64,000 nucleotides of DNA from a virus. Taxonomy: Duplodnaviria; Caudoviricetes. The DNA lies in the IMG/VR virus record IMGVR_UViG_3300025087_000034. The stretch is one strand, 5' to 3'. The stretch's first letter is position 1, and each line of letters begins with the position of its first letter. Made by a program: the position numbers and the translations under genes. The notes beneath the pieces were generated by a model that was not told the DNA's origin, made no database searches, and worked only from the letters and a program-made list of their open reading frames with translations. Below are positions 926 through 60,627 of the stretch, piece after piece.

Positions 926-2212
926 ATGTGCGAAGACTGTACTAAGTGTCAGGTTGGTAGCCATAATAAGGTTAGTGTGGCGGTTAGGTGCATATATACA
1001 GGAAGGGTACCTACGTTGTTTGAGTACAGTGCCCAGCTTAGTGATGAATGGTACCAAGAGAGAAATGGTGATTTAACTCCCAAAGATGTTACCATGGGTA
1101 GTACTCGTGTTGTTTGGTGGAAACATACGGCAAGAGGCGGGGTGGAACATGTTTGGCAGGCAGCCATATATAGCAGGGTTACTAATGGGTGCCCATATTG
1201 TGGTAATCGTAAGGTCGGGTATGGCAATGATTTAAAAACTGTTAATCCTTTATTGGCAGAAGAGTGGCACCCTACAAAGAATGAAGAGGGACCAGAGAGG
1301 GTTCTTCCTGGCTCGCATAAGAAGGTTTGGTGGTCCCACGTAGCTAAAGACGGGTGCCTACATGAGTGGGAGGCTGCTATTTATAGTAGGGTTATCAGTG
1401 GGTGCCCTTATTGTAATTGTAAACTGGCTGGCTACGGCAATGACTTGGCTACCAAACACCCAGGGCTGGTAGAACAGTGGCACAAGACAAAAAATAGTAA
1501 GAAACCAGAAGAGTACTTGCCTAACTCTCATGTCTCGGTTTGGTGGCAACATACCACTATTGATGGCCAGGTACATGAGTGGGAGGCTATTATTGCTAAT
1601 AGGTCGGATAAAAATCAGAAGTGTCCCTATTGTTCTAGCCATCGTGTAGGATATGGCAATGATTTTAAATCTTGTCACCCAGACTTAGCTTTGGAGTGGC
1701 ACCCTATTAAGAACGAGTTTGGACCTGGGCACTATATGCCCCAATCTAATCAAAAGGTCTGGTGGCAACATTTAGCTAAAGACGGGTCTATGCATGAGTG
1801 GTTTGCCACTATTTCAGGTAGAGTGGGTCAAAAAGGCAGGTGTGGAAAGGGGTGCCCTTTTTGTCCAGATGGAAGTATATCTAAAATTTCAGGGCTTTGG
1901 TTAAATGGCTTAGGGGTACCAGATTGTTATAATAAAAACAGGGAAGTTGTTTTAGGTGTTGGGGGCTATACTTTTCGAGTAGATGGTTTTGATCCTTCAA
2001 CAAACACTGTTTACGAGTTTCTTGGAAACTACTGGCACGGTAATCCGTCTATGTTTAGTTCAGATGAACTAAATAAAACAGTGGGTAAGACTTTTGGCCA
2101 GCTTTATCAAGAAACCATGGAAAGAATTAAACTTTTAGAAGACGTAGGATATAAAGTAATTTATATTTGGGAAAAAGACTTTAATAAACTAGTCAAGGAT
2201 AATATGGTTTAA
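926..2212 (+). CDS. Repeat-array endonuclease (4 DUF4379-like zinc-ribbon repeats + C-terminal DUF559/Vsr-like PD-(D/E)xK nuclease); putative free-standing homing endonuclease
   Basis: Repeats GYGNDL..P.L..EWHP.KN...P......S..KVWW.H......HEW.A.I..R...CPYC; C-terminal RVDGFD...VYEFLGNYWHGNP...YIWEKDF. Stop overlaps TerL start (TAATG). Confidence 0.75.
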   Translation: MCEDCTKCQVGSHNKVSVAVRCIYTGRVPTLFEYSAQLSDEWYQERNGDLTPKDVTMGSTRVVWWKHTARGGVEHVWQAAIYSRVTNGCPYCGNRKVGYGNDLKTVNPLLAEEWHPTKNEEGPERVLPGSHKKVWWSHVAKDGCLHEWEAAIYSRVISGCPYCNCKLAGYGNDLATKHPGLVEQWHKTKNSKKPEEYLPNSHVSVWWQHTTIDGQVHEWEAIIANRSDKNQKCPYCSSHRVGYGNDFKSCHPDLALEWHPIKNEFGPGHYMPQSNQKVWWQHLAKDGSMHEWFATISGRVGQKGRCGKGCPFCPDGSISKISGLWLNGLGVPDCYNKNREVVLGVGGYTFRVDGFDPSTNTVYEFLGNYWHGNPSMFSSDELNKTVGKTFGQLYQETMERIKLLEDVGYKVIYIWEKDFNKLVKDNMV

Positions 2213-3912
2213 TGGCTAATTTATTATTACGAAGTGGCAAACTTTATGACAGGGCGATGGAGCTAGTTGAGTTTTATCGTTGCAATCCAGTCGTTGCAGC
2301 ACAAGACCTACTGTTTCAAGATTTCCCAGCTGCACAAAAGATTATGTTAAACCATATGTGGAGCAGAGTTAATGTTATAATAACAGCAGGACGAGGGTGT
2401 GGTAAATCTAGAACGCTTGCTGTTTTGTCAGCTTTATATGCGATGTTATATCCAGGACAAAAAATCCTAATAATTGCACCATCTTACAGACAATCGAAAC
2501 ATGTATTTCAGGAACTAAAACAAATCTATACAGAAAGCCCTGTGTTGAGGGAAGCCTGTGATAAGAAACCTATCGTAAGTTCTGATAGGTGCTATTTAGA
2601 TTTTCGTGGGACTAATAATAGGTCAGGTAGTACTGTTGAGGCCTACCCTCTGGGGGTTGGCGATAAGATTAGAGGATTGCGGGGCCATCTTATTGTAGAA
2701 GACGAAATTGTCCATATACCTGAAGAAATCCATAATACGGTCATTGCCCCTATGGGAGCTACTTTTTCGGACCCCATGGCCAATGTGCGGAGAATGGAGA
2801 AACTTAACCAACAACTGGACTATGGTGTAATAACACAAGAAGAGTTTCAAGAACAAAAAGAAGGCAAGTCCTCAAACAAGATAGTTGGTGTTACTTCTGC
2901 AGATTTTCAGTTCAATTATGTCTATAAAAGGATAAAGGCTTTTGAGGAGCAAATAGCTAAGGGTAGTAAAAAATATTCTACTTTGTATTTTTCTTATGCT
3001 GATATGCCTGAAGGGTTTTTAGACAAGGATAATATTGAAACTGCCAAAGCCACGATGAGTAGTAGTGAGTTTAATAGAGAATACCGAGGCATTTGGGAAT
3101 CAGATAGCGACGGACTTTTTAAGGCATCACTTATAGAGTCCTGTCGATCTCAATCAAAAGAGGTTCAACCGGAGGGATTACCTGGAAGGGAGTATATCAT
3201 GGGGGTTGATCCAGCGAGGTCATCGGCCGCTTTTGCAGTAGTGGTTATTGAAAAGGCCTATCCTACCTCACACGTGGTAGCAGCTTTTCAAGCAACTAAT
3301 AATACTTTCCCCCAAATGGCACAAATAGTATATAATTTTAGTGAGAAGTTTAATGTAGTAATGTTACAGATGGATGCTGGAGCGGGCGGTGGTGGTATGG
3401 CGATTAAGGATATATTGTCCAGTCCCCTATTCTTTAAGGGACATTTACTTCTTGATATTGATGACCCTACCCACAAGAACTTGGTGGGTAGGAGAATAAT
3501 AAGAATGCATGATCCAAAACCGGGTACTGTTGCAGAGATGAATTACGCAGCATTAAATCTCTTAGAACAGGGGAAATTAAGATTTCCAAAACGTCCGGTT
3601 GATGGTGATGAAAAGAAGGAAGTTCTATTTGATGATATTTCTATAATGATAAAGCAGATTATTTCAGTTGTACCTACAGAGACTAGAAGTGGGGGAGTAC
3701 ATTTCGATATACCAGCATCTGGTCAGGGTAATAGAAAGAAGGACTTATACTCTGCTTTTTTGTTAGCTGCTAAGGCACTTTATGATATAATAAATGTTAG
3801 AGAGACATCAGATGTTGCTAATTTAGGTATAATAAGACCAGTAGAAAGTAGATTAATAAGTGGTCCAGTAATAACAAATGTAAGTAATTTTTCTAATCAT
3901 AGGGGTAGGTGA
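2212..3912 (+). CDS. terL: Terminase large subunit
   Basis: Walker A AGRGCGKS, Walker B-like LIVEDE, RNase H-like nuclease motif MGVDPAR, C-terminal KKDLYSA; lies before the portal. Confidence 0.93.
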   Translation: MANLLLRSGKLYDRAMELVEFYRCNPVVAAQDLLFQDFPAAQKIMLNHMWSRVNVIITAGRGCGKSRTLAVLSALYAMLYPGQKILIIAPSYRQSKHVFQELKQIYTESPVLREACDKKPIVSSDRCYLDFRGTNNRSGSTVEAYPLGVGDKIRGLRGHLIVEDEIVHIPEEIHNTVIAPMGATFSDPMANVRRMEKLNQQLDYGVITQEEFQEQKEGKSSNKIVGVTSADFQFNYVYKRIKAFEEQIAKGSKKYSTLYFSYADMPEGFLDKDNIETAKATMSSSEFNREYRGIWESDSDGLFKASLIESCRSQSKEVQPEGLPGREYIMGVDPARSSAAFAVVVIEKAYPTSHVVAAFQATNNTFPQMAQIVYNFSEKFNVVMLQMDAGAGGGGMAIKDILSSPLFFKGHLLLDIDDPTHKNLVGRRIIRMHDPKPGTVAEMNYAALNLLEQGKLRFPKRPVDGDEKKEVLFDDISIMIKQIISVVPTETRSGGVHFDIPASGQGNRKKDLYSAFLLAAKALYDIINVRETSDVANLGIIRPVESRLISGPVITNVSNFSNHRGR

Positions 3913-3914
3913 AC

Positions 3915-3935: not shown

Positions 3936-3962
3936 TTTAAACAATAAGGGTTTAGATATAAG

Positions 3963-10794: not shown

Positions 10795-12459
10795 GTGTTT
10801 ATGAGCAATAATAAGGTACAAGAAAATAAAAAGTGTTTAAATGTGGATAGGAAGATAGCCTGGTGTAGAAATAAGCTGGACGAGATTGGTGTCTATATGG
10901 GGGCATTTAGTTATACCCTGGTTTCAGATAGTTATAAAAATAATAAAATTAAATTAGAGACCTTGTGTCCTAATGGCCATAGGTGGTTTGTTAGGTGGAG
11001 TGATTTTAGGGTTGGTAAGCGGTGTCCTTGTGAAACCAACAATATGCCAATAACTAAAGAGGTAGTGATAGAAGTTTTAAAGGTTTATGGTTTCGACCTT
11101 GTTTCCGATACCTATGTAGATAATAAAACACCCATAAAGATAAGGTGTACTCATGGGCATACCACGGAAATGAGTTATAGCCATTTCTATAATAGACCTC
11201 ATTGTAGTGAGTGTTGGAGAAAAACACTACCAACATATAGCAAGATAAAAGAACACTTTGTTGTTATGGGTTATACCTTATTGTCGGATAATTATGTGGG
11301 ATCTAAGAAACTTTTAAGATATAAGTGTAAAGAAGGACATATAAATTATATGTCTTGGAATAACTTTAGTAGAAAGTATAGATGCCCAGACTGTGCTAAT
11401 AATGCTTTATTAACTATACCTTTTTTGAGGGAAGAGTTTGGTAAAAGGGGATATACGTTAAATTCAGATATATATGAGGGCAACAAGAAAAAGTTGGACT
11501 GTACTTGTCCTTTGGGACATAAATGGTCTGTAAGTTGGAATTGTTTTAATCGTCCACAAGAATGTCCGAGGTGTAATAGAATGTCTTCAAAACCAGAACG
11601 TGAGATTAGGGATTTTGTTATTTCTTTATTAAGTGAAGAAGAAGTAATATGTAATGATAGGGAAACTATAGGTCCTTATGAATTGGATATTTTTATTCCC
11701 GCGAAAAAAGTTGCTATAGAATTTTGTGGTCTTTATTACCATTCCGAGGTCTCCGGAGGCAAGACGAACCGATATCACTATGATAAAATGGTAGCTTGCA
11801 ACCAGAAGGGCATAAGGCTTCTAGTAGTGTTCGAAGATGAATACACCAATAGAAAGGAAGTAGTTCTTTCAAGAATACAGAACGCAATAGGTGTTGGACT
11901 AAAACGAGTATACGCACGACAGTGTGAAATACGAGAAATAGATTCAAAAACAGCAAATGCATTTTTGTTAGAATTTCACTTACAAGGTAAAAGTAATTCA
12001 ACTAAAAGGTGGGGTTTATATTATAAGGATTTATTGGTAGCTGTACTTACGGCAGGGTTCCCCGCTCGCGCTCATACGTCGGGCGGGAAACGGGTTCTTG
12101 AAATAAAGCGGTTCGCTTCTAGGGGTGGGTATAGTATTGTAGGCGGAGCGTCAAAGTTGTTTGGCAAAGCTAAGGAGTTTGCTATAGAGCAGGACTTTGA
12201 GGTGATTAAGAGCTATTGCGACAGACGCTATGAGTCACTTCGGCCCGTCTACGAGCAGCTGGGATTGGTAATGCAATCATACACTAAATATACGCCTCAC
12301 TATATTAGTCCTGATTATAAAGTACGGGTCCGCAATCAAGGATTGAGAAAAACTCCGGAAGAAAGACTCACTGGAAAAAGTGAGTGGGAGCTTAGGAGAG
12401 AACAGGGCTACGATCGCATATTTGATTGTGGACATAGAACATATGTTATGGAGCTCTAG
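10795..12459 (+). CDS. Repeat-array endonuclease: 4 CxxGH..CxxC repeats + PD-(D/E)xK nuclease + GNAT-like C-terminal domain (Hef-like homing endonuclease)
   Basis: Repeats such as CPNGH..WSDF..RCPC; ELDIFIPAKKVAIEFCGLYYHSE nuclease; FHLQG...RFAS...VGGASKLF...SYCDRR C-terminal domain as recalled for Hef-type phage endonucleases. Confidence 0.7.
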   Translation: MFMSNNKVQENKKCLNVDRKIAWCRNKLDEIGVYMGAFSYTLVSDSYKNNKIKLETLCPNGHRWFVRWSDFRVGKRCPCETNNMPITKEVVIEVLKVYGFDLVSDTYVDNKTPIKIRCTHGHTTEMSYSHFYNRPHCSECWRKTLPTYSKIKEHFVVMGYTLLSDNYVGSKKLLRYKCKEGHINYMSWNNFSRKYRCPDCANNALLTIPFLREEFGKRGYTLNSDIYEGNKKKLDCTCPLGHKWSVSWNCFNRPQECPRCNRMSSKPEREIRDFVISLLSEEEVICNDRETIGPYELDIFIPAKKVAIEFCGLYYHSEVSGGKTNRYHYDKMVACNQKGIRLLVVFEDEYTNRKEVVLSRIQNAIGVGLKRVYARQCEIREIDSKTANAFLLEFHLQGKSNSTKRWGLYYKDLLVAVLTAGFPARAHTSGGKRVLEIKRFASRGGYSIVGGASKLFGKAKEFAIEQDFEVIKSYCDRRYESLRPVYEQLGLVMQSYTKYTPHYISPDYKVRVRNQGLRKTPEERLTGKSEWELRREQGYDRIFDCGHRTYVMEL

Positions 12460-12467: not shown

Positions 12468-13916
12468 GTGGGAAAGCTATCTAAAGAGTATAATTTGGCT
12501 GTTCTCTATCCGGACTTAGCTAAACAATGGCACCTTACTAAGAATAAGGGGGGCCCTGAACAATATTTACCAAAGTCTTGTAAAAAAGCCTGGTGGTTTG
12601 AAGAAAAAGATGGTGTTTTTTATGAATGGAAAGCAAAGATACAAAATAGGGTTAGTAACGGTGCAGGTAATCCATATATTTGTGGTCAATCTGTGGGGTA
12701 TGGAAATGATTTAGCTTCGCTACGTCCAGATTTAGCTAAACAATGGCACCCAACTAAAAACGAAAAGGGCCCAGAGCAGTACACCATAGGTACCCATAAG
12801 AAAGTGTGGTGGCTTGAGGAGATTGAGGGGGTTGTGTACGAGTGGTTGTCTCCCATATACCACAGGGTTAGGGGAGATAACAACCCATATTTGTCTGGTA
12901 GGGCGGTTGGGTATGGGAATGATTTAGCTTCGCTACGTCCAGATTTAGCTAAACAATGGCACCCAACTAAAAACGAAAAGGGCCCGGAGTGTTATGTTCC
13001 AATGTCCAGCAAAAAAGTTTGGTGGTGCGAGGAGGCTGGTGGAGTTTTTTACGAGTGGGAAGCCATTATACATAATAGAGTAAGGCTTGAGCAAGGTAAT
13101 CCTTATTTATCGGGGCATAAGGCTGGTTATGGTAACGATTTGGCTACTTTGATGCCTGATTTAGCTAGACAGTGGCACCCTACTAAAAATAAGAAAGGGC
13201 CAGAGCATTATACCTGTGGCTCACCGAAGAAGGTTTGGTGGGTACAAGAGGTCGGTGGGGTTGTATATGAGTGGCAGATGTCTATTTATAGCAGAGTTAA
13301 GCTTGGTTGTAATAACCCCTATTTGTCTGGTCAATCTGTGGGGTATGGAAATGATTTGGCATCGCTATGTCCCGATTTAGTTAAACAATGGCACCCAACC
13401 AGGAATAAAAAAGGTCCCGAATGTTATACTATAGGGTCTGGTAAAAGGGCCTGGTGGTGTGAGGAGGTTGGTGGGGTTTTTTATGAGTGGCCGGCAACAA
13501 TCTACAGTAGGGTTCACGGGAGTGGTAACCCATATATTTGTGGGGGGCCTATCTCTAAGATTTCACAGCAGTGGCTGGATTTTTTAGGGGTACCCAATAA
13601 TGTAGGTACTACAAGGGAATTTTTAATAAATGTAGGTACTAAGTCTTTTAGGGTTGATGGTTTTAACCCGGAAACCAAAACTGTTTATGAGTTTCTAGGT
13701 ACTATTTGGCACGGCGATCCTAGGGTATGTCAGTCTTTAGACAGAAATCCTTTTAATAAAAGGACCTATGGCCAGCTTTACTATGAAACTCTTGAACGTT
13801 TCGACCTGATAAGGTCCGTGGGATATAGTATAAAATATGTTTGGGAAAGTGATTTTAGGGCGGGAAAAAAGTTCTCAGTAGGTAGTTTTCAAAAGGAGGG
13901 AAAGTATGAGTATTAG
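12468..13916 (+). CDS. Repeat-array endonuclease: 5 DUF4379-like repeats lacking Zn ligands + DUF559/Vsr-like nuclease
   Basis: Five ~71-aa repeats with WW.EE..GV.YEW and NPY(L/I) in place of WW.H/C..HEW and CPYC; C-terminal RVDGFNPETKTVYEFLGTIWHGDP. Confidence 0.75.
   Translation: MGKLSKEYNLAVLYPDLAKQWHLTKNKGGPEQYLPKSCKKAWWFEEKDGVFYEWKAKIQNRVSNGAGNPYICGQSVGYGNDLASLRPDLAKQWHPTKNEKGPEQYTIGTHKKVWWLEEIEGVVYEWLSPIYHRVRGDNNPYLSGRAVGYGNDLASLRPDLAKQWHPTKNEKGPECYVPMSSKKVWWCEEAGGVFYEWEAIIHNRVRLEQGNPYLSGHKAGYGNDLATLMPDLARQWHPTKNKKGPEHYTCGSPKKVWWVQEVGGVVYEWQMSIYSRVKLGCNNPYLSGQSVGYGNDLASLCPDLVKQWHPTRNKKGPECYTIGSGKRAWWCEEVGGVFYEWPATIYSRVHGSGNPYICGGPISKISQQWLDFLGVPNNVGTTREFLINVGTKSFRVDGFNPETKTVYEFLGTIWHGDPRVCQSLDRNPFNKRTYGQLYYETLERFDLIRSVGYSIKYVWESDFRAGKKFSVGSFQKEGKYEY
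12705..12985 (+). repeat. 68-bp exact direct repeat (12705-12772 and 12918-12985) within the repeat-array gene
   Basis: AATGATTTAGCTTCGCTACGTCCAGATTTAGCTAAACAATGGCACCCAACTAAAAACGAAAAGGGCCC occurs twice, 213 nt (71 codons) apart. Confidence 0.9.
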
Positions 13917-16875: not shown

Positions 16876-17658
16876 ATGAATAATAGTTGTGAGTGTAAGT
16901 CCGGTATTTATACCATTATTAATACTGTGAATGGAAAATCTTATGTAGGAAGCTCCGTGAATATTAAGAGGCGCTGGTATGATCATCGCTCGTCTTTAAA
17001 CAGGGGGGCTCATGAGAATCCCCATCTTCAGAATTCTTGGAATAAGTATGGTGCAGAATCTTTTTATTTTGGTGTTTTAGAGTTTGTAGACAACAAAAGG
17101 ACTTTAATTTCAAGAGAACAGTATTGGATTGATTTGCTAGAGGTAGTTAATTTTGACAAGGGGTACAATATTAGCCCTTCTGCTGGGAGTTGTTTGGGAG
17201 TAAAACATTCAGATGAGACTAGAAAAAGGATCTCTTTGTCGATGGCTGGTTCTTCTAATCCTTTCTATGGTAAGCACCATACGGAGGAAACCAAGAGGGG
17301 GCTTTCTAGCGCGCGCATAGGTAGAAACATAGGTGAGGATAACCATTTTTATGGAAGGCACCATACGGAAGAGACTAAGAAAAAGATGTTGGTGGCTAAG
17401 CAGGCTGTCGAACTTGAGTTTATGGGGGAGGTCAAGGTGTTGGGCGAGTGGGCTAAGTGTACAGGAATAAGTAGACTAACTTTGAGTTCAAGAATATTTC
17501 AGTTAGGGTGGTCTACGGAGAGGGCACTAACAACACCAGTGAATCAGAGTGTAAGCGTAAAAAGAGTTAAGCAGGTGTTTTCTTGTGAGACAAGAAAAAA
17601 GATGTCAGAGTCTGGTAGGAATAGAAAATGTAGGTGTAGTTTGGCGACAAAACTTTAA
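16876..17658 (+). CDS. GIY-YIG homing endonuclease with NUMOD3 motifs
   Basis: SGIYTI.N..NGKSYVGSS..IKRRW..H; repeated NPFYGKHHTEETK / NHFYGRHHTEETK; C-terminal GWSTERALTTP module. Confidence 0.9.
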   Translation: MNNSCECKSGIYTIINTVNGKSYVGSSVNIKRRWYDHRSSLNRGAHENPHLQNSWNKYGAESFYFGVLEFVDNKRTLISREQYWIDLLEVVNFDKGYNISPSAGSCLGVKHSDETRKRISLSMAGSSNPFYGKHHTEETKRGLSSARIGRNIGEDNHFYGRHHTEETKKKMLVAKQAVELEFMGEVKVLGEWAKCTGISRLTLSSRIFQLGWSTERALTTPVNQSVSVKRVKQVFSCETRKKMSESGRNRKCRCSLATKL

Positions 17659-19018: not shown

Positions 19019-19019
19019 A

Positions 19020-33827: not shown

Positions 33828-35063
33828 ATGTGTCGAGTAATATCTTCAGGTCATAATCTTGCCACATGTTTTCCCGATGTTCTCCGTTTGTGGGATTATG
33901 ACACTAATGAGGATGGTCCTGAGTTTTATATGCCAAAAACAGGGAGAAAGGCTTGGTGGTTACATTATACGGACGGCGGGGTTTTGCACAGGTGGAGAGC
34001 CAGAGTTTGTGATGTAGTTAAGAGAAACTGCCTTCAAGAAAAAAGTACTCTTGGGTGTCCATATTGTGTAGGTAAGTCTGTTGGTTTTGGTAATGATCTT
34101 GTTACAACGCACCCGTATTTAGCGGAACAGTTGTCTGTATGTCGTAATGGGTTTGGTTCGGAATCTTGCACACAAGGCTCTCATAAAAAGGTTTGGTGGT
34201 GGCATAGGACCGGGGGTGGGGTTTTGCATGAGTGGAGGGCTTCTATTTATAGCAGGGCTCTAGACGACAAGGGGTGCCCTTATTGTAAAAATCAGCTTGT
34301 TGGTTATGGAAATGATTTAAAATCTTTACGCCCAGATATTGCTAAAGACTGGGATTTTGATAGGAATGATAGGGGGCCAGAGAGTTATGTACCCAAGTCG
34401 GGTAAGGCTGTTTGGTGGGTGCATACGACAGACGAGGGGGAAATACATAGGTGGAAGGCCATAATAAAAAATAGGGTCAGCAATAAAAGTAGGTGCCCCT
34501 ACTGTTCTGGTAGAGAGCCAACTTTTGTCCACAATTTAGTTGTTTTGTATCCAGTTTTGGTATATAATGAGTGGGATTTTGAAAGGAATAAGAAAGGACC
34601 AGAGCAGTATACCCCAAAGTCAGGTAAAAAAGTCTGGTGGAAGCATTTTTGTGAGAAAACAGGGGAGCAGCATAGGTGGAAAGCAATTGTTTGTAGTAGG
34701 ACCTTGAACAGCACGGGGTGCCCTTACTGTAAGAACGGTCCTATATCTAAGGCCTCTGGTTGTTGGTTGGATACGTTAGGTATTCAAAACATTCATGGGG
34801 TAACAAGGGAAGTTAGTTTAAATGTAGGTACTAAGTTTTTTAGGGTTGATGGTTTTAATCCTGAAACCAAAACTGTTTATGAGTTTCTTGGAAACTATTG
34901 GCACGGTAATCCGTCTATGTTTGGTTCAGATGAACTAAATAAAACAGTAGGCAAGACTTTTGGTCAACTTTACCAAGGGACCATGGAAAGAATTAATTGT
35001 CTAGAAGAAGCAGGGTACAAGGTATTTTATATTTGGGAGAAGGATTTTAATGAGAGATTTTAA
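33828..35063 (+). CDS. Repeat-array endonuclease (4 DUF4379-like repeats + DUF559/Vsr-like nuclease)
   Basis: Same architecture as 926-2212; SD AAGGAGG favours ATG 33828. Confidence 0.75.
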   Translation: MCRVISSGHNLATCFPDVLRLWDYDTNEDGPEFYMPKTGRKAWWLHYTDGGVLHRWRARVCDVVKRNCLQEKSTLGCPYCVGKSVGFGNDLVTTHPYLAEQLSVCRNGFGSESCTQGSHKKVWWWHRTGGGVLHEWRASIYSRALDDKGCPYCKNQLVGYGNDLKSLRPDIAKDWDFDRNDRGPESYVPKSGKAVWWVHTTDEGEIHRWKAIIKNRVSNKSRCPYCSGREPTFVHNLVVLYPVLVYNEWDFERNKKGPEQYTPKSGKKVWWKHFCEKTGEQHRWKAIVCSRTLNSTGCPYCKNGPISKASGCWLDTLGIQNIHGVTREVSLNVGTKFFRVDGFNPETKTVYEFLGNYWHGNPSMFGSDELNKTVGKTFGQLYQGTMERINCLEEAGYKVFYIWEKDFNERF

Positions 35064-37093
35064 TGTCGGTGCAGTTTATGCCAAAAATTAAATATCCTTA
35101 TTCGTTTGTAAAGGATTTTATAGAAAGTTTTGGGTACAAGCTATATACTGATGAGGAAAGTTACGAGAATGTAACTACCCCGCTGCTAGTAGCGTGCAAG
35201 AAGGGGCATGTACATACCACTAGTTTTAACCATATTTATGGAGGCGGGGCGAAATGTCGTGAGTGTAATAAAATAGGAATAGCTAGAGTTATAGAGGAGT
35301 TTTCTAAGGTTGGCTATACTGTTTTATCTGAAAATTATAAGAATCAGTATACCAGAATAAAGTACTCTTGTGATAAGGGGCATGTTAATTTTACTACTTG
35401 GAATAGTTTTCAGAGTATGCGCAGGTGCCCCGAGTGCGAAAAAGAGCCTTACGACAATATTGTTAAGGCATTCAAGGATAGGGGATATGAGGTATTATCT
35501 TCTTTAGAAGAGTACGATTTAGTTGGTAGCCATTTCAAGTTTCGTTTTATATGCCCAAACGGGCATAGATCGTTTATGACCTATAGTAATTTTAAGAAGC
35601 CCACAGAGTGCGGTTTATGTTCTAAGACTAGAAAGAAGACGTATGAAGAAGTGGAAAAGAGGTTTAGGGCAGCGGGGTTTTTATTGGATGAGGGAGACTA
35701 TGTAAACCAGGACACTGATATGTCTTGTTTTTGTACTAACGGTCACCAAAATAGTACTTCGTTGTATAGGCTTCCTGGTTATTCGTGTAAAGAATGTGAC
35801 AGGGAGGTTTTTTTAAGGGAGCAGGATAGACTTCTTATTTTGGGTTTGATTTTAAGTGAGGAGAGAGATATACATAGCCAGCTTAAGGTTGAGTGTTTTG
35901 TTTGTGGTAGTATATATTGGCGGTATTTTCCAGAGGTTACTAGGTTGAGGGCTTGTTCTTGTTGTGAACAAGAGGCAGAATCTTATAAAAACCTTGTGGA
36001 GCTTTTGCCAATAGGGTTTAAAATGAGGACGGGTATGTGGGTTGGGTCTGATAACACCTACGTAGTTGAGTGTGGTAGGGGCCATGTGGCCAGGCAGGCT
36101 TATCCTAATATAATCGGAAAGAGGGTTGGGTGTGCTGAGTGCTATGGTAATAAGCTTGTGGGAATAGATCGTGTTCGTGACTATATGGGTACTTTTGATT
36201 ATACGCTGCGTTCAGATACCTACGTAAATGCACAGGGAAAATTAGAATATGCATGTCCAAAAGGGCATATAAGACAGATGAGTTGGGATAATTTTTTTCA
36301 TGGAAAAAGGTGCCCAGAATGTAATCCTTCGGGTGTTTCTAGAGCAGAAAAGGAAGTTTGTTCTTATGTTATTTCCCTAATTGGTGAAGAAAATGTAATC
36401 CCAAATGATAGGGAACAAATAAAGCCGTACGAGTTAGATATTTTTGTACCGTCGAAAAATTTTGCCATTGAATATTGTGGACTATATTGGCACTCAGAAT
36501 TTTCCGGCGGGAAAGATAAATTCTACCATAAAATGAAATATGATATGTGTAAGGAGAAGGGAATTAAACTTTTCACACTATTTGAAGATGAATATATTAA
36601 TAAAAAAGATATAGTATTAAATATAATATCACAAGAACTAGTAGGGAGTAATATAGATTTTTCAAAATGTCAAGTAAAAGAAGTAGATGTTGAGGCGGCA
36701 AATAATTTTCATAATAAGTATAATCTTGATGGTGGTTGTGATATAAAATATTCTTTTGGTATGTATTTTAATGGTAATTTAATTAGTTGTATTTCTTTTG
36801 ATAGATATCTTTTTTTGGTGAGGTGTAGTAATATAAATGGTTGTTTTGACAGGCTTTTTTTGGCCGCCGAAAAAATTTTCGGGCGGAAGATAAAAATCAA
36901 AACCAACCTAAGATATGATCAACAAGAAGACACCTACATAAAATTAGGATTTAAAAAAGATAGGTATATAGATCCAACCCCGTTTAATCTAGACGGGGAG
37001 AAAAGATACATTAGTACAGACCTAGACCTTAAAGAAGAAGAATCAGACAGGGTCTGGGACTGTGGTTTCCAGTTGTATATTAATAATGCTTAA
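35063..37093 (+). CDS. Repeat-array endonuclease: ~7 CxxGH/CxxC repeats + Hef-like nuclease with divergent C-terminal domain
   Basis: ELDIFVPSKNFAIEYCGLYWHSE nuclease; paralogue of 10795-12459; TAATG-coupled to the upstream nuclease gene. Confidence 0.7.
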   Translation: MSVQFMPKIKYPYSFVKDFIESFGYKLYTDEESYENVTTPLLVACKKGHVHTTSFNHIYGGGAKCRECNKIGIARVIEEFSKVGYTVLSENYKNQYTRIKYSCDKGHVNFTTWNSFQSMRRCPECEKEPYDNIVKAFKDRGYEVLSSLEEYDLVGSHFKFRFICPNGHRSFMTYSNFKKPTECGLCSKTRKKTYEEVEKRFRAAGFLLDEGDYVNQDTDMSCFCTNGHQNSTSLYRLPGYSCKECDREVFLREQDRLLILGLILSEERDIHSQLKVECFVCGSIYWRYFPEVTRLRACSCCEQEAESYKNLVELLPIGFKMRTGMWVGSDNTYVVECGRGHVARQAYPNIIGKRVGCAECYGNKLVGIDRVRDYMGTFDYTLRSDTYVNAQGKLEYACPKGHIRQMSWDNFFHGKRCPECNPSGVSRAEKEVCSYVISLIGEENVIPNDREQIKPYELDIFVPSKNFAIEYCGLYWHSEFSGGKDKFYHKMKYDMCKEKGIKLFTLFEDEYINKKDIVLNIISQELVGSNIDFSKCQVKEVDVEAANNFHNKYNLDGGCDIKYSFGMYFNGNLISCISFDRYLFLVRCSNINGCFDRLFLAAEKIFGRKIKIKTNLRYDQQEDTYIKLGFKKDRYIDPTPFNLDGEKRYISTDLDLKEEESDRVWDCGFQLYINNA

Positions 37094-38260: not shown

Positions 38261-39028
38261 ATGCAATGCAGGTCTGGGATATACGCTATAATAAATATTG
38301 TTAATGGAAAATTTTATGTAGGGTCTGCTTGTAATTTTAGAGAGAGGTGGTCCAATCATATAAGGGGCCTTAATAAAGGAACCCACTACTCAGTGTATCT
38401 TCAGAGCGCTTGGAACAAGTATGGTAAGGAGAATTTCTACTTTGGTGTTTTGGAACCAGTGGAAAATATAGAGGATTTGGTGGGTAGGGAGGATTATTGG
38501 ATCAAATACTTTGATGCTGCCAACCCTAAAATAGGCTATAATATTTGTCCTACAGCGGGAAGCCTTTTGGGCTATAAATTCACGGAAGAATCCAGGCAGA
38601 AAATGTCTAAGAACAATAGGGGTGAGAAGAATCCTATGTATGGTCGTACAGGTGAAAAAAGCCCAAGCTATCAACATGCTAAGTGCTGGGAGTACGAGGG
38701 AAAATCCCAGCCTTTGTCTGACTGGGCGAAAGAGTACAATATAAGTCGGACAACCCTTGCCTTCCGAGTAAAAGAGATGGGCTGGTCTCTTGAACGGGCA
38801 CTAACAACACCTGTTCTTTCTCTGGAAGGGGAAAACAACTCTAGCTACCAGCGAGCCAAGTGCTGGAAATATAATGGAAAATCCCAGCCGTTGTCTGATT
38901 GGGCTAAAGAGTACGGTATAAATAGAACCACCTTAAACTTCAGGGTTAATGTGCTAGGTTGGTCCTTTGGACGAGCCCTTGATATCCCTATAGTGCCTAG
39001 GGATAAAAATAAACTTTCTATTGTATAG
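38261..39028 (+). CDS. GIY-YIG homing endonuclease with NUMOD3-like motif and duplicated C-terminal HTH-like module
   Basis: SGIYAI.N..NGKFYVGSA..FRERW..H; GEKNPMYGR; two copies of KSQPLSDWAKEY.I.RTTL.FRV...GWS..RAL..P. Confidence 0.9.
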   Translation: MQCRSGIYAIINIVNGKFYVGSACNFRERWSNHIRGLNKGTHYSVYLQSAWNKYGKENFYFGVLEPVENIEDLVGREDYWIKYFDAANPKIGYNICPTAGSLLGYKFTEESRQKMSKNNRGEKNPMYGRTGEKSPSYQHAKCWEYEGKSQPLSDWAKEYNISRTTLAFRVKEMGWSLERALTTPVLSLEGENNSSYQRAKCWKYNGKSQPLSDWAKEYGINRTTLNFRVNVLGWSFGRALDIPIVPRDKNKLSIV

Positions 39029-54244: not shown

Positions 54245-55309
54245 ATGTGTAGAAAATTTACATATGAAGAAGTCAAAGAGGCCTTTGAAGCTAGGGGGTA
54301 TACCTTGCTTAGTAAGGAATATATAAACTGTGATACAAAATTAGGGTACGAGTGTGTGGGGGGTCATTTCGGGGCCATGTCTTTTTACAGGTTTAAGGGT
54401 GGTACGAGGTGTCCTACTTGTGTAAGAAATAAAAAACTTACTTATGAGGAAGTTAAAGAGGCATTTGAGCTTAGAGGCTATGTTTTATTAAGTGATAACT
54501 ATGATAATGCTCAAACTAAATTAAGGTATAGGTGCCCAAAAGGGCACATTGGGTACACTACTTATGGTAATTTTTATCAGAAACATAGATGTCCTATTTG
54601 TTATCATGAGGAACGCAAATTTTCGTACGAGGAAGTTAATAAAAGTTTTACAGCTAGGGGCTATACGCTCCTTAGTTCAGACTATAAAAATAACAGCACT
54701 AAGTTAAATTATAGGTGTCGCAGGAATCATTTGGGGGCAATGCCCTATAGTCAGTTTTTGCGGGGGCATAATTGTCCAGAGTGTTATGCACAAGACTGTT
54801 ATTTAACTTACACGGATGTTAAGGAAGTCTTTGAAGCTAGGGGCTATGTATTGCTTAGTGACACATATATAAATACTAATACTAAGTTGAAGTATAAATG
54901 TCCAAACGGGCATATTGGGGCTATGTCTTATGGCCATTTTAGTCAAGGTAGTGATTGTCCAATTTGTGCGAGAAATTCCCACGTATCTAAAAGTTCTCAA
55001 CAATGGTTGGATTCTTTAGGCCTTCCCAAGGAAATGGGTATTAATAGGGAGGTTAATTTGAGGGTCGGGGGTATTAGGTTTAAGGTTGATGGTTTTGATT
55101 CAGAAACCAATACTGTGTATGAGTTTCTTGGTAGCTATTGGCATGGAAATCCAGCAGTGCACAGGCCGGATGAAATTAATGAGCGGTCTGGAAAAACCTT
55201 TGGTAAGCTTTATAAAGAAACTTTTGAACGGTTTGATAGTATAAAACAAGCTGGCTATAACATAAAATATGTTTGGGAAGGGGATTTGGGCACTGTGTAT
55301 AGTTACTAA
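54245..55309 (+). CDS. Repeat-array endonuclease: 4 x ~61-aa CxxGH/CxxC repeats + DUF559/Vsr-like nuclease
   Basis: YEEVK..F..RGY.LLS..Y.N..TKL.Y.C..GH.G.M.Y..F..G..CP.C x4; KVDGFD..TNTVYEFLGSYWHGNP. Confidence 0.78.
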   Translation: MCRKFTYEEVKEAFEARGYTLLSKEYINCDTKLGYECVGGHFGAMSFYRFKGGTRCPTCVRNKKLTYEEVKEAFELRGYVLLSDNYDNAQTKLRYRCPKGHIGYTTYGNFYQKHRCPICYHEERKFSYEEVNKSFTARGYTLLSSDYKNNSTKLNYRCRRNHLGAMPYSQFLRGHNCPECYAQDCYLTYTDVKEVFEARGYVLLSDTYINTNTKLKYKCPNGHIGAMSYGHFSQGSDCPICARNSHVSKSSQQWLDSLGLPKEMGINREVNLRVGGIRFKVDGFDSETNTVYEFLGSYWHGNPAVHRPDEINERSGKTFGKLYKETFERFDSIKQAGYNIKYVWEGDLGTVYSY

Positions 55310-55691: not shown

Positions 55692-56609
55692 ATGGGTAAA
55701 AAGAAAACATTAGAAGAAGTTGAGCAGGATTTTTTGGTACGTGGTTATACACTGCTAAGTGATAGTTATTTAAATAATAAGACTAAATTATGCTATTCAT
55801 GCTCGGAAGGGCATACCAACTCTATGACTCGTAGCGAGCTTATACAAGGAAGCCATTGTCCAACGTGTAATATAGAGAGACAAAAGGTTCCGTTAGCAGT
55901 TATAAAGGAAGCTTTTGATAGTGTAGGGTATAAACTGTACGAGCAGCCTTATATTAATAGTGGTACTAAGTTAGATTATACTTGTAATAAGGGTCACCAT
56001 AGGTCTATGACTTGGAGTAATTTTAGAAATGGCCAGAGGTGCTTGGTGTGTTTTTGGGAATCAATGCGGCTGGATATTGGATATGTTAGGGAGGTTTTTT
56101 TAGCCCGGGGGTATACTTTAGTAAGCGATACTTACGGGAATGCTTTTTCTAAGTTAGATTATATATGCCCAAAGGGCCATTTTGGTAGTATGCGGTTTAA
56201 CGATTTTCAACAAAAGCATGATTGTCCTATTTGTGCAGAGGATTCGTCTGTTTCTAAAATATCACAGGTGTGGTTGGATTCTTTGGGCGTTCCTAACAAA
56301 TTAGGCCAATATAGGGAAGTATGGAAAAAAATAGGGGGAAGGCTACTAAAGCTAGATGGTTTTGTAGAAAAAACTAATATGGCGTATGAATTTTTGGGTG
56401 ATTACTACCATGGTAACCCAACCAGATTCAACCCCGGCGAAATGAACAAAACTGCTGGAAAGACCTTTGGTGAGTTATTTGATACTACGATGGAGAGGTT
56501 AGACCTGATAAGGAAAGAGGGTTTCAATCTTGTTTATATATGGGAAAAAGATTTTGGTTATATTGTTAATAAAGACGAGCTAGTGAGATATAAGCACACA
56601 TGCCCCTAG
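55692..56609 (+). CDS. Repeat-array endonuclease: 3 x ~61-aa repeats + DUF559/Vsr-like nuclease
   Basis: Same family as 54245; probable start ATG 55692 (track start 55647 overlaps the upstream gene); KLDGF...AYEFLGDYYHGNP. Confidence 0.78.
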   Translation: MGKKKTLEEVEQDFLVRGYTLLSDSYLNNKTKLCYSCSEGHTNSMTRSELIQGSHCPTCNIERQKVPLAVIKEAFDSVGYKLYEQPYINSGTKLDYTCNKGHHRSMTWSNFRNGQRCLVCFWESMRLDIGYVREVFLARGYTLVSDTYGNAFSKLDYICPKGHFGSMRFNDFQQKHDCPICAEDSSVSKISQVWLDSLGVPNKLGQYREVWKKIGGRLLKLDGFVEKTNMAYEFLGDYYHGNPTRFNPGEMNKTAGKTFGELFDTTMERLDLIRKEGFNLVYIWEKDFGYIVNKDELVRYKHTCP

Positions 56610-57744: not shown

Positions 57745-57757
57745 AGGGGGTTTAAGC

Positions 57758-58855
57758 ATGTGTAGAAAGCTTACGTACGAAGAAGTTAAAGGGACTTTTG
57801 AAGCTAGTGGTTATACCCTACTTAGTAAAGAATATATAAGTAATTGTACTAAGTTGGATTATAGATGTTCTGAGGGGCATTTTGGTTCAATGACGTACAG
57901 CAGTCTTCAACAGGGACACTCTTGTCTTATTTGTAGTATAAAGAATAAAAGACTTAGCTATAAAGATGTTAAAAAAATGTTTGAGAGTAGGGGATATGTA
58001 TTGCTTAGTAAGGAGTATATAAATAGTGGTACTAAGTTGGATTATAGGTGCCCTAGAGGCCACCTTGGGTCAATGGTTTATAATCATTTTCAGGATGGGA
58101 GAAAGTGCCCTGTTTGTGTTGGTGAGGATCGAAGGCATTTTTATGAAGAGATTAAGGTTGTTTTTGAGTCACGAGGCTATAAATTGATTAGTAGTGAATA
58201 TAAGGACAATAAAACTAAGTTAGAGTATGTGTGTCCAAAGGGGCATTTAGGATCTATGACCTTTAGTAATTTTCAACAGGGAAGGAAGTGTCCTGTTTGT
58301 TCTGTTGATAATATTAGGCTTTCTTATGAAGAGGTTAAGGAAGCTTTTGATAACAGGGGTTATACGTTACTTAGTACTGAGTATGTAAATTCTAATATTA
58401 AGTTGGATTATAAGTGTCCAAAGGGGCATTTAGGTGCTATGAAATATAATAGTTTTCAGCAGGGAAAGTCTTGTCCCATTTGTTCATTAAACTACTCTGT
58501 TTCCAAGGTTTCCCAAGTATGGCTTGATTCTTTAGGGGTGTCAAATGAAAGGGGCGTTAGTAGAGAAGTTACTTTGAAAATTGGAGAAAACAGGTTCAAA
58601 GCAGACGGTTTTGATCCAGAAACCAATACGGTTTATGAGTTTCTAGGTACTATTTGGCACGGAGACCCCAGGGTGTGTAAGCCTTTAGATATAAATTATG
58701 TCAATAAAAAGACCTTTGGTCAACTTTATCAGGAGACCTTTGACCGTATAAAATTAATAGAAGAAGCAGGATACAGAGTAATTTATATTTGGGAGTCAGA
58801 TTTTAGATCCCAAAATTTTTCTGGCGGGGAAAAAGAATTAATCCAACATGCTTAA
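57758..58855 (+). CDS. Repeat-array endonuclease: 4 x 61-aa repeats + DUF559/Vsr-like nuclease
   Basis: Probable start ATG 57758 after AAAGGGGG; KADGFDPETNTVYEFLGTIWHGDP. Confidence 0.78.
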   Translation: MCRKLTYEEVKGTFEASGYTLLSKEYISNCTKLDYRCSEGHFGSMTYSSLQQGHSCLICSIKNKRLSYKDVKKMFESRGYVLLSKEYINSGTKLDYRCPRGHLGSMVYNHFQDGRKCPVCVGEDRRHFYEEIKVVFESRGYKLISSEYKDNKTKLEYVCPKGHLGSMTFSNFQQGRKCPVCSVDNIRLSYEEVKEAFDNRGYTLLSTEYVNSNIKLDYKCPKGHLGAMKYNSFQQGKSCPICSLNYSVSKVSQVWLDSLGVSNERGVSREVTLKIGENRFKADGFDPETNTVYEFLGTIWHGDPRVCKPLDINYVNKKTFGQLYQETFDRIKLIEEAGYRVIYIWESDFRSQNFSGGEKELIQHA

Positions 58856-59258
58856 TAAATATATTTTAGAATTACATTGGTTATATACAGATTTAATAAA
58901 TGATGAAACCTGTATATTGCACCAACCCTACTTTTCAGGTCCAGCATTAAAGATAGCACAAAGAATAGAACCAAATAATAACATAGTTATAGACCTTTCA
59001 GGTCAATATAGTTCATTAATTTCTAGTCATTATTTTGTAACACTCTTTTGGAAGGAAGTTAGGTACTATGACGAGCGTGCTTATTTGGGAGACGCAAGAT
59101 TTTTCGGCGGGCTAATAAATAAGTTGTCAAAACTGACAAAGAATGATTATATATTAATTGATACTTCAAAACATGAAGAAAATAAACATATGTATAATTT
59201 AGTATATGAAGGAAGAATCTATACACAAGATAAGAAGGATAAAGTAATTAATGGTTAA
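58848..59258 (+). CDS. Hypothetical protein
   Basis: 136 aa; overlaps the upstream nuclease stop. Confidence 0.55.
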   Translation: MLNKYILELHWLYTDLINDETCILHQPYFSGPALKIAQRIEPNNNIVIDLSGQYSSLISSHYFVTLFWKEVRYYDERAYLGDARFFGGLINKLSKLTKNDYILIDTSKHEENKHMYNLVYEGRIYTQDKKDKVING

Positions 59259-59514
59259 AATTCATGGACATACTTCCAATGTTGGATACACATATAAGAG
59301 ATGTCCTTATAGTACTTGGTATAAAGAAAACTACTATGATATAGGTGAGTTAGGAAATTCAACAAATCCCAACTTACCCGTTGTAACAGGTGATCATCCT
59401 AGTACTGATGGGACGATGAACATGTACAATAGGGGTGGGGTACCTGGATGGATGTGCTGGGATGATAATTGTCCGTTTTTCTTGTTGCAGGGGGTTAGAT
59501 ATACAGAGGTTTAG
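59251..59514 (+). CDS. Small Cys-containing hypothetical protein
   Basis: 87 aa; RCPY...WMCWDDNCPF. Confidence 0.55.
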   Translation: MVKIHGHTSNVGYTYKRCPYSTWYKENYYDIGELGNSTNPNLPVVTGDHPSTDGTMNMYNRGGVPGWMCWDDNCPFFLLQGVRYTEV

Positions 59515-59529
59515 ATAAAGGAGCGTTTT

Positions 59530-60627
59530 ATGGGTAGAAAGCTTACTTATGAAAAGGTTAAAGATGTTTTTGATAATAGGGGTTATACGTTGCTTAGTAG
59601 CGAGTACGTGGATAATACAACTAAGCTAGACTATAAGTGCCCAAGGGGCCATTTAGGGTCTATGATTTATAATAGTTTTCATCAGAATCGTGGGTGTCCT
59701 ATTTGTGATATGGAGAATAGAAAACCTACTTATAGTAAGGTTAAACAGTATTTTAAGGACAGGGGCTATACGCTGTTTAGTATGGAGTATAGAAATAATA
59801 ATACTAAGTTGGAGTATAAGTGCCCTAGGGGGCATTTAGGGGCCATGACTTATCGTAATTTTCAGCAGGGGGGTAGTTGCCCTGTCTGTTCTATAGAGGA
59901 TAGAAGGCTTTCTTATGAAGAGGTTGAGCGAGCATTTGCTGACAGAAGGTATAAGCTACTCAGTACTGAGTATGTAAATTGTTTTACCAAGCTAGACTAT
60001 AGATGCCCAAGGGGACATTTGGGAGCTATGTTTTATAATTGTTTTCAGCAGGGGTGTAGTTGTCCTGTTTGTTCGGTCGAGGATAAGAGACATTCTTACG
60101 ATGAGGTTGAGCGGGCATTTGCTGACAGAGGGTATAGGCTACTCAGTACAGATTATTTAAATAGTAAAACCAAGCTAGAATATAGGTGCCCAAAAGGGCA
60201 TTTAGGGTCTATGATTTATGGTAGTTTTCAACAGAGCAGTGATTGTCCTATTTGTTCGAAGATTTCCTTCGTTTCTAAAGTGTCACAAAAATGGTTGGAT
60301 TGTTTGGGTTTGGCTAAAGAAATGGGAATTAGCAGAGAGGCTAATTTGCAGATAGGGGACCATCGTTTTAGGGTAGATGGTTTTGATTCTAAAACAAGCA
60401 CTGTTTATGAGTTTCTTGGAGACTATTGGCATGGTAATCCATCCATGTTTAAACTTGACGATATGAACGACAGGGTAGGAAAGTCTTTCGGTCAACTTTA
60501 CCAAGAAACCATTGATCGTATTAAACTATTAGAGGACGCAGGGTACAAGGTAGTTTATATATGGGAGAAAGATTTCAGAGAACAGGAACTTATGGCTGGG
60601 AAACTAACCTACACAAACATAAAATAA
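59530..60627 (+). CDS. Repeat-array endonuclease: 4 x 61-aa repeats + DUF559/Vsr-like nuclease
   Basis: Very regular repeats; RVDGFDSKTSTVYEFLGDYWHGNP; SD AAGGAG. Confidence 0.78.
   Translation: MGRKLTYEKVKDVFDNRGYTLLSSEYVDNTTKLDYKCPRGHLGSMIYNSFHQNRGCPICDMENRKPTYSKVKQYFKDRGYTLFSMEYRNNNTKLEYKCPRGHLGAMTYRNFQQGGSCPVCSIEDRRLSYEEVERAFADRRYKLLSTEYVNCFTKLDYRCPRGHLGAMFYNCFQQGCSCPVCSVEDKRHSYDEVERAFADRGYRLLSTDYLNSKTKLEYRCPKGHLGSMIYGSFQQSSDCPICSKISFVSKVSQKWLDCLGLAKEMGISREANLQIGDHRFRVDGFDSKTSTVYEFLGDYWHGNPSMFKLDDMNDRVGKSFGQLYQETIDRIKLLEDAGYKVVYIWEKDFREQELMAGKLTYTNIK

What the first reader, a model, noticed from the sequence alone, without database searches (positions are those of the whole stretch)
926..60627. 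Mix-and-match family of nine repeat-array nucleases dispersed through the virion operon
Seen: nine genes combine one of two repeat types with one of two nuclease types. DUF4379-like ~71-aa repeats occur in 926, 12468 and 33828; CxxGH..CxxC ~55-61-aa repeats occur in 10795, 35063, 54245, 55692, 57758 and 59530. Seven share a (R/K)xDGF..YEFLGxxWHG(N/D)P..Y(I/V)WExD domain; two have a Hef-like ELDIF.P..AIE.CGLY.HSE domain. Repeat number varies from 3 to about 7. With two GIY-YIG genes, nucleases fill ~13.4 kb (~21%) of the window. Established: free-standing homing endonucleases are modular and invade phage structural operons. Inference: a within-genome radiation that generates new specificities by array and nuclease shuffling, for homing, exclusion of competing phages, or DNA degradation.
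Basis: partly seen in the sequence, partly recalled or inferred. Interest (0 to 1): 0.82.

Follow-up and report, generated by a model that had tools for sequence, protein, structure and literature searches.

The report
Zinc-finger-array homing endonucleases in jumbo phage
Nine selfish "homing endonuclease" genes, each a string of small zinc-finger-like DNA-binding modules attached to a Vsr-type DNA-cutting domain, sit between the virion genes of a ~258-kb groundwater phage; the kind is already described, but this genome shows unusually clearly how such genes swap parts and change module number.

Summary
Nine + strand genes combine DUF4379 repeats (3 genes) or CapR/DUF723-like repeats (6 genes), 3 to 7 units each, with one of two C-terminal nuclease domains. 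With two GIY-YIG genes they fill 13,398 nt, 20.9% of the window.

Three points need correcting.
- The two "nuclease types" are homologous branches of the Vsr-like/EDxHD superfamily.
- The five repeats of g12468 have lost all four putative zinc ligands.

All nine genes are absent from the matching intergenic sites of related phage contigs. One distant relative has a Hef-type gene at the same site after the major capsid gene. The nuclease domains are mosaics of each other, and the repeat type changes often on the family-wide nuclease tree. The g12468 array has 5, 4(?) or 2 units in natural near-relatives.

Whether this is a radiation within one genome could not be resolved. The architecture was published in 2025 (PMC12350094), Hef is a known EDxHD member, and multi-copy homing endonuclease genes are known in phages. 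I therefore rate it a new member of a known kind, of moderate interest. Other first readers of this scan noted the same genes on overlapping windows.

The parts
926..2212 (+). g926: 4 DUF4379 repeats (H/H/C/C ligand pattern) plus a Vsr-like nuclease (NucA). It lies between a 255-aa gene (156-923) and the large terminase (2212-3912). Stop and start are coupled with the terminase.
   Evidence: Relatives L001-L003, L005, L006 and L009 have the two flanking genes adjacent.
10795..12459 (+). g10795: 4 CapR-like Cys/His repeats, an EDxHD/Hef-type Vsr-like nuclease (NucB) and a C-terminal Mom-like GNAT domain. The public gene call is 552 aa, starting 6 nt later. It lies directly after the major capsid gene (9556-10683).
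   Evidence: The site is empty in L001-L004, L006 and L007. L010 has a 494-aa Hef-type gene, 46% identical over 345 aligned residues, at the same site.
12468..13916 (+). g12468: 5 DUF4379 repeats in which all four putative zinc ligands are replaced, plus NucA. The array is polymorphic in nature (5, 4? and 2 units).
16876..17658 (+). GIY-YIG/NUMOD3 homing endonuclease gene
   Evidence: phrog_314, E 7.4e-41; PF01541, PF07460
33828..35063 (+). g33828: 4 DUF4379 repeats plus NucA. Its nuclease is sister to that of g926.
   Evidence: L010 has the flanking genes (homologs of 32128-33735 and 37062-37424) adjacent.
35063..37093 (+). g35063: 7 CapR-like repeats (units 5 and 6 degenerate), EDxHD/Hef-type nuclease and Mom-like GNAT domain. 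Its start overlaps the stop of g33828.
38261..39028 (+). Second GIY-YIG/NUMOD3 homing endonuclease gene
   Evidence: phrog_314, E 4.5e-30. Absent between the homologous flanking genes in L010.
54245..55309 (+). g54245: 4 CapR-like repeats plus NucA
   Evidence: L011 lacks any such gene in the syntenic run.
55692..56609 (+). g55692: 3 CapR-like repeats plus NucA (YYHG variant). Its nuclease is sister to a tenth copy 3.8 kb upstream of the window.
57758..58855 (+). g57758: 4 CapR-like repeats plus NucA
   Evidence: In L011 the homologs of 57043-57744 and 58848-59258 are adjacent.
59530..60627 (+). g59530: 4 CapR-like repeats plus NucA
   Evidence: In L011 the homologs of 59251-59514 and 60689-61600 are adjacent.

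Best explanation
These are free-standing homing endonuclease genes of the Vsr-like/EDxHD superfamily, lodged between the virion genes of a jumbo phage of about 258 kb.

Proposed mechanism (inferred):
- The N-terminal array of 3-7 small treble-clef-type modules binds a long DNA site.
- The C-terminal Vsr-like domain, with its Asp/Glu/His catalytic residues intact in all nine genes, cuts nearby.
- In a mixed infection with a relative that lacks the gene, the cut allele is repaired from the carrier genome. That copies in the endonuclease gene together with neighbouring markers.

The family diversifies by recombination between paralogs, both inside the nuclease domain and between array and nuclease, and by unequal recombination inside the arrays.

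Shown here: domain identities, folds, absence from relatives, mosaicism, array-length polymorphism.
Inferred: DNA binding by the arrays, cleavage, homing.
For: Domains: DUF4379 and CapR repeats. The NucA model has pLDDT 88.8. Its best PDB fold match is E. coli Vsr (1vsr, probability 1.00), followed by T. gondii mitoribosomal large-subunit proteins (9g6k) and, at rank 16, I-Bth0305I (3r3p). The NucB profile hits I-Bth0305I at E 2.4e-7. NucA and NucB align at hhalign probability 92.9%.

Catalytic residues: D, E and H are invariant in 49 NucA and 30 NucB sequences and present in all nine copies.

Mobility:
- All nine insertion points are empty in related contigs whose major capsid protein is 62-73% identical.
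- A 46%-identical Hef-type gene occupies the same post-capsid site in L010.
- A sister strain is 98.9% identical over 12 kb up to a point inside g12468 and 84% beyond it. This fits published findings that nuclease genes sit at exchange boundaries (PMC10055350).

Shuffling:
- Sliding-window identity peaks of 93%, 90% and 95% between different gene pairs in adjacent segments; PHI p<0.0005.
- At least 19 repeat-type changes on 87 labelled tips of the nuclease tree, against 25.2 +/- 1.9 when labels are shuffled.
- Supported sister pairs with different repeat types.

Literature: the same architecture is called a large unrecognised outgroup of EDxHD/Vsr homing endonucleases (PMC12350094). Hef-type genes are placed in the EDxHD family (PMC3239194).
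Against: - No cleavage, DNA-binding or homing data exist for any of these proteins.
- Within the sampled near-clonal population, the places shown carry the same genes at each site examined. The g12468 site always carries a copy of that gene, though its allele varies. So no ongoing gain or loss was observed.
- Empty sites are seen only in relatives at 24-74% protein identity.
- The copies are old (41-72% identical) and their nuclease and Mom-like domains are strongly conserved. That also fits a function useful to the phage.
- The Foldseek match of NucA to Vsr is modest (TM 0.49, E 6e-3).
- The two Hef-type genes carry a Mom-like domain that plain homing does not need.
Confidence: 0.78

Rival explanations
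1. They are weapons rather than purely selfish genes. The phage would keep the nucleases to exclude co-infecting relatives or to degrade host DNA. In the two Hef-type proteins the Mom-like domain would modify the phage's own adenines, so that the fused nuclease spares self. That makes a single-chain restriction-modification-like enzyme aimed by a zinc-finger array.
For: - The Hef-type C-terminal domain models confidently (pLDDT 92.9) and its best PDB match is phage Mu Mom (8bv8, E 2.3e-7).
- Homologs 56-59% identical to g10795 over this region (P0161, P0183, and P0263 at 50%) pass Pfam Mom (PF25680) at 31.2-33.9 bits against a cut-off of 27.1.
- The equivalents of Mom residues R111, D149 and R151, named essential in PMC13219725, are invariant or nearly so.
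- The places shown from the sampled population all carry the genes.
Against: - Seven of the nine genes have no Mom-like domain.
- The window's own two proteins do not reach Pfam Mom, even at E 1. The alignment to Mu Mom is weak (E 0.014, probability 3%).
- Presence or absence at precise intergenic sites, and a homolog at the same site in a distant relative, are the classic signature of homing.
- Marker exclusion and homing are not mutually exclusive, so this is partly a matter of emphasis.
Confidence: 0.15
2. They are domesticated DNA-binding proteins, such as regulators or packaging or processing helpers of the virion operon. They would keep a nuclease fold but no longer move.
For: - Tight translational coupling with structural genes: overlaps of 1-32 nt and gaps of 2-15 nt.
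- Same gene content in the places shown from the sampled population.
- One array has lost its zinc ligands.
Against: - Catalytic residues are intact in all nine genes.
- Related phages build the same virion module without them.
- Eleven separate helpers in one operon is implausible.
- Tight packing is usual for free-standing homing endonuclease genes.
Confidence: 0.05

Closest known systems
CapR/DUF4379/DUF723-array + EDxHD/Vsr-like homing endonucleases described in phage group I and II introns (Nucleic Acids Res 2025, PMC12350094)
   Same: Same architecture: three to five modules of about 60 aa related to CapR, DUF4379 and DUF723, followed by a C-terminal nuclease of about 100 aa distantly related to EDxHD/Vsr. 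The paper reports thousands of unannotated homologs. I found 6,326 clusters at 50% identity.
   Different: Here the genes are free-standing between genes, not inside introns. Nine copies lie in 64 kb, with a tenth just upstream. Both repeat types and both nuclease branches occur side by side. One array lacks zinc ligands.
I-Bth0305I and Hef-type endonucleases, the EDxHD family (PMC3239194; PDB 3r3p)
   Same: Vsr-like catalytic domain. The NucB profile matches 3r3p at E 2.4e-7. The paper itself lists phage Hef-type homing endonucleases as family members.
   Different: I-Bth0305I is intron-encoded and uses two NUMOD/helix-turn-helix motifs for DNA binding. It has no Cys/His repeat array and no Mom-like domain.
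Mom-REase fusion proteins of jumbo phages (PMC7824862) and phage Mu Mom (PDB 8bv8; PMC13219725)
   Same: The C-terminal domain of g10795 and g35063 has the Mom-type GNAT fold, with the equivalents of R111, D149 and R151 conserved. It is fused to a restriction-fold nuclease, as reported for jumbo phages.
   Different: Mu Mom is a stand-alone enzyme. No modification activity is shown for the fusions. The window's proteins fall below the Pfam Mom threshold.
Multi-copy homing endonuclease sets and 'HEG islands' in phages: T4 with 15 (PMC2993671), Campylobacter phages, ICP1 (PMC10055350)
   Same: Many free-standing endonuclease genes lie between essential genes, with exchange boundaries at nuclease genes. 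Campylobacter phage records show 9-18 tblastn places for the CapR-type query.
   Different: Local density is high (20.9% of a 64-kb virion region). The set is dominated by one Vsr-like superfamily with repeat arrays, rather than the GIY-YIG and HNH genes that make up T4's set.

Membership tests
EDxHD / Vsr-like homing endonucleases | Catalytic domain with the Vsr-like restriction-endonuclease fold | tested here: met
   NucB: profile against PDB hits 3r3p at E 2.4e-7. NucA: AF2 model pLDDT 88.8; best Foldseek hits 1vsr and 1cw0 (probability 1.00 and 0.98, TM about 0.5), with 3r3p also listed. NucA against NucB: hhalign probability 92.9%.
EDxHD / Vsr-like homing endonucleases | Conserved acidic and histidine catalytic residues | tested here: met
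   D of (V/L)DGF or ELD, E of YEF or AIE, and H of WHG or YHS are invariant in alignments A1 and A4 and present in all nine window copies.
EDxHD / Vsr-like homing endonucleases | Mobility: present or absent at a defined site among related genomes | tested here: met
   All nine sites are empty in related contigs. One site is occupied by a homolog in L010.
EDxHD / Vsr-like homing endonucleases | Site-specific cleavage of the endonuclease-free allele, and homing | not testable with these tools
   Needs biochemistry or phage crosses.
Pfam DUF4379 (treble-clef zinc finger) | Match above the gathering score; zinc-ligand pattern | tested here: met
   138.7-179.2 bits against a cut-off of 24.5. However, g12468 lacks all four ligand positions in all five units, so it meets the sequence test but probably does not bind zinc.
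Pfam CapR homology domain (PF21817) | Match above the gathering score | tested here: met
   27.8-60.7 bits against a cut-off of 24.2 for all six genes. The units share only a roughly 20-residue C-terminal knuckle with the DUF4379 units.
Mom family (PF25680), GNAT superfamily | Pfam match; GNAT fold with Mom-specific residues | tested here: inconclusive
   The window's proteins give no Pfam hit at E<=1. Homologs P0161, P0183 and P0263 (50-58% identical to g10795 in this region) pass at 31.2-33.9 bits against 27.1. The best PDB fold match is 8bv8. R111, D149 and R151 equivalents are conserved in a weak alignment.
GIY-YIG homing endonucleases | GIY-YIG catalytic domain plus NUMOD DNA-binding motif | tested here: met
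   phrog_314 at E 7.4e-41 and 4.5e-30. PF01541 and PF07460 are on record for the identical proteins.
Programmable modular DNA binders (zinc-finger or TALE-like code) | One module reads a fixed number of bases through a few variable residues | not tested
   I saw only that variation among 15 CapR-like units clusters in a few patches on a fixed scaffold. No target sites are known.

The most novel reading that the evidence does not exclude
The CapR-like and DUF4379 arrays may be a natural modular DNA-recognition system. Each 60-72-aa unit would read a few base pairs through the variable patches. Unequal recombination of units, together with swapping of arrays onto Vsr-like nuclease heads (with a Mom-like modifying head in the Hef-type genes), would re-aim the enzymes. 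That would make a phage-borne analogue of zinc-finger or TALE nucleases, including a zinc-free scaffold variant.
Probability: 0.15. Interest if true: 0.85.

Novelty: new member of a known kind. Interest (0 to 1): 0.42.

Why it matters
This genome gives a compact natural experiment on how homing endonucleases diversify. It holds ten related genes in one genome with two array types and two nuclease branches. Recombination junctions are visible at the catalytic motif. Array-length alleles occur in wild populations.

If the arrays prove modular in what they read, they would be a new scaffold for targeted nucleases. The zinc-free DUF4379 variant would show how a treble-clef module can survive without metal. 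The Mom-like domain on Hef-type enzymes raises a testable link between homing and DNA hypermodification.

As it stands, the finding mainly extends a family that was recognised in 2025.

Tried and rejected
- Megablast of 20 kb of the window against 50,697 phage records found no match, so there is no cultured close relative.
- No whole genome is held for this window, and the 258-kb contig could not be searched by handle. The full copy number in the genome therefore comes only from single look-ups.
- phmmer of NucA against PDB gave only a spurious rubrerythrin hit at E 1.2. The fold search was needed.
- The AU test first rejected monophyly of the seven window copies (p 0.0004) and of the three DUF4379 genes (p 0.011). 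That was driven by P0042, the ortholog of g12468 from a sister strain. With it removed, neither grouping is rejected (p 0.77 and 0.88), and the constrained trees scored better than the quick free search. I do not claim tree incongruence within the window.
- An apparent missing endonuclease in L030 turned out to be scaffold gaps of 100 N.
- The 4-unit allele in L035 differs by exactly one 213-nt unit, across an 84-nt stretch shared by neighbouring units. It could be a short-read assembly collapse, so I treat it as uncertain.
- PHI can be inflated by rate variation along a short coding alignment. I rely on it only together with the sliding-window pattern.
- A literature search for the original SegH/Hef paper returned only noise.
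- No complex prediction or read mapping was run. Neither would change the verdict.


Full report
**What is there**

The window is one long + strand operon of a phage. It contains:
- a large terminase (2212-3912), a portal (3963-5876) and a major capsid protein (9556-10683);
- a 3587-aa ORF (40110-50873) and many genes with no PHROG match.

It has no near match among 50,697 deposited phage genomes. Identical proteins, with the same neighbouring genes in the places shown, occur on at least 24 contigs from independent assemblies. Several of these are labelled groundwater metagenome, and the longest contig is 258,514 nt. The sequence is therefore real and belongs to a jumbo phage.

**Check of the observation**

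All nine genes translate as described.
- Pfam finds DUF4379 in g926, g12468 and g33828, with 4, 5 and 4 stretches at E 1.5e-53 to 6.8e-41.
- Pfam finds the CapR homology domain above its gathering score in the other six.
- Motif anchoring gives 4, 7, 4, 3, 4 and 4 CapR-like units of 57-64 aa.
- Seven genes end in a shared domain of about 110 aa at 41-72% pairwise identity. Two end in the ELDIF ... CGLY.HSE domain.
- The two GIY-YIG genes are at 16876-17658 and 38261-39028.
- The eleven genes sum to 13,398 nt, 20.9% of the window.

**What the domains are**

The shared 110-aa domain (NucA) has no Pfam model and no sequence match in PDB.
- An exhaustive search finds it in 6,326 clusters at 50% identity. 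In the 150 best hits listed it lies at or near the C-terminus in all but one, behind N-terminal regions of variable length.
- An AlphaFold model built on 49 sequences is confident (pLDDT 88.8).
- Its best PDB matches are E. coli Vsr (1vsr and 1cw0, probability 1.00 and 0.98). T. gondii mitoribosomal large-subunit proteins (9g6k) follow, and the I-Bth0305I catalytic domain (3r3p) appears at rank 16.

The second nuclease (NucB, Hef-type) matches PHROG families annotated as HNH or homing endonuclease over its whole length. As a profile it matches I-Bth0305I at E 2.4e-7. Taylor et al. (PMC3239194) already list phage Hef-type enzymes in the EDxHD family.

Profile-profile comparison aligns NucA with NucB at probability 92.9%, E 3.6e-7. 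(V/L)DGF pairs with ELDIF, YEFLGxYWHG pairs with AIExCGLYWHS, and IWExDF pairs with IFEDE. The "two nuclease types" are therefore two branches of one Vsr-like superfamily.

The two repeat types are distinct but share a zinc-knuckle core of about 20 residues (weak DUF4379 hits on the CapR-type genes).

First, behind the nuclease the Hef-type genes have a further conserved domain of about 190 aa.
- It models at pLDDT 92.9, and its best PDB match is phage Mu Mom, a GNAT-fold DNA-modifying enzyme (8bv8, E 2.3e-7).
- Homologs P0161, P0183 and P0263, which are 50-58% identical to g10795 in this region, pass Pfam's Mom family. The window's own proteins do not.
- In a weak alignment to Mu Mom, the residues R111, D149 and R151 fall on invariant or nearly invariant columns. 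PMC13219725 names these residues essential.
- Iyer et al. [quoted passage not shown] They proposed a modification-plus-restriction role.

Second, the DUF4379 units of g926 and g33828 have an H/H/C/C pattern. In all five units of g12468 the four positions are E, Y, N and L/I instead, and the protein contains no CxxC at all. This array probably folds without zinc.

**Evidence for mobility**

Contigs of related phages, with a major capsid protein 62-73% identical, keep the same gene order.
- In six of them the 255-aa gene and the terminase are adjacent, without g926.
- In six the capsid gene is followed directly by the homolog of 13906-14370, without g10795 and g12468.
- In L010 the homologs of 32128-33735 and 37062-37424 are adjacent, without g33828 and g35063. 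The second GIY-YIG gene is also missing there.
- L010 does carry one 494-aa Hef-type gene, 46% identical over 345 aligned residues to g10795, at the same post-capsid site.
- A more distant relative, L011, has the syntenic run from 50873 to 63385 without any of the four genes at 54-61 kb.

A sister strain (L012) is 98.9% identical to the window from 801 to 12845. That end point lies inside the g12468 array. Beyond it identity is only 84%, and the array there has 2 units (267 aa) instead of 5. The same 2-unit allele occurs on three further short contigs.

A contig 99.9% identical to the window lacks exactly one 213-nt unit (L035). This may be real or may be an assembly collapse.

In the rest of the sampled population, the places shown carry the same endonuclease genes. 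Turnover is therefore visible only over longer distances.

**Evidence for shuffling**

At family scale:
- Of 111 NucA homologs, 72 carry DUF4379, 30 DUF723 and 21 CapR.
- On the nuclease tree the repeat type changes at least 19 times among 87 labelled tips, against 25.2 +/- 1.9 for shuffled labels.
- Several well-supported sister pairs carry different repeat types.

Inside the window the nuclease domains are mosaics.
- g12468 matches g33828 at 93% over nt 76-135 of the domain, but at 42-53% elsewhere.
- g12468 matches g57758, a CapR-type gene, at 90% over nt 121-180.
- g33828 matches g926 at 95% over nt 136-195, but at 53-57% at the 5' end.

A pairwise-homoplasy test gives 0 of 2000 permutations as low as observed.

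**What could not be shown**

Tree tests could not settle whether the window's copies arose by duplication in this genome.
- Supported sister pairs within the genome are g926 with g33828, and g55692 with a tenth copy (P0017: 2 CapR-like units plus NucA).
- That tenth copy lies 3.8 kb upstream of the window, next to a third GIY-YIG gene.

**Comparison with what is known**

Multi-copy homing endonuclease sets are well known. T4 has 15 (PMC2993671). Campylobacter phage records give 9-18 hits each with the CapR-type query. Nuclease genes at exchange boundaries, and "HEG islands", have been described (PMC10055350).

NucA itself is rare in deposited phage genomes: 6 of 50,697 records, all of 180-636 kb. 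It is common in IMG/VR contigs, with at least 436 stretches.

**Verdict**

The genes are best read as free-standing homing endonucleases of a recently recognised branch of a known family. This genome is an unusually dense and informative example: there is recombination among paralogs, natural array-length alleles, a zinc-free array and Mom-like fusions.

The mechanism (array binds, Vsr-like domain cuts, repair copies the gene) is inferred, not shown.

Noticed in passing
about 3.8-4.5 kb upstream of window position 1 (L118:4001-4693 and the next gene at 4708-5643): A tenth family member (230 aa, 2 CapR-like units plus NucA) and a third GIY-YIG/NUMOD3 gene lie just outside the window, among peptidase genes. 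L118:8479-8693 equals window 1-215 at 100% identity.
   Followed up: yes
window 12468-13916: All five DUF4379 units have lost the four putative zinc ligands (H, H, C, C replaced by E, Y, N, L/I). The 2-unit allele in sister strains shows the same loss.
   Followed up: partly
window about 12845 (against L012): Identity to a sister strain drops sharply from 98.9% (12 kb) to 84%, exactly inside the g12468 array. The sister contig also ends soon after, as expected where strains differ.
   Followed up: partly
window 15198-28718: A block of about 13.5 kb of large genes, plus one GIY-YIG gene, is absent from relatives L010 and L008. Precomputed hits on these genes include Laminin_G_3 and beta-helix. 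In L010 the homologs of 14745-15089 and 28946-29866 are adjacent; L008 has an unmatched ORF in between. It is probably a variable virion decoration or fibre module.
   Followed up: no
window 40110-50873: A single 3587-aa ORF. A distant relative (L011) has a 1325-aa gene with a weak match. I did not analyse its function.
   Followed up: no
window 62153-63998: The 410-aa protein and the following gene carry Big_1 (bacterial Ig-like) precomputed hits in identical contigs.
   Followed up: no
L001:4258-6205: The portal homolog is split into two ORFs (234 and 408 aa) in this relative. It could be a frameshift, a sequencing error or an insertion; I did not examine it.
   Followed up: no
ENA contig of 78,294 nt (P0176, P0179, P0184, P0187, P0210): Another metagenomic contig carries at least five different Hef-type (NucB) genes of 602-778 aa. 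Dense multi-copy sets of this branch therefore recur elsewhere.
   Followed up: no
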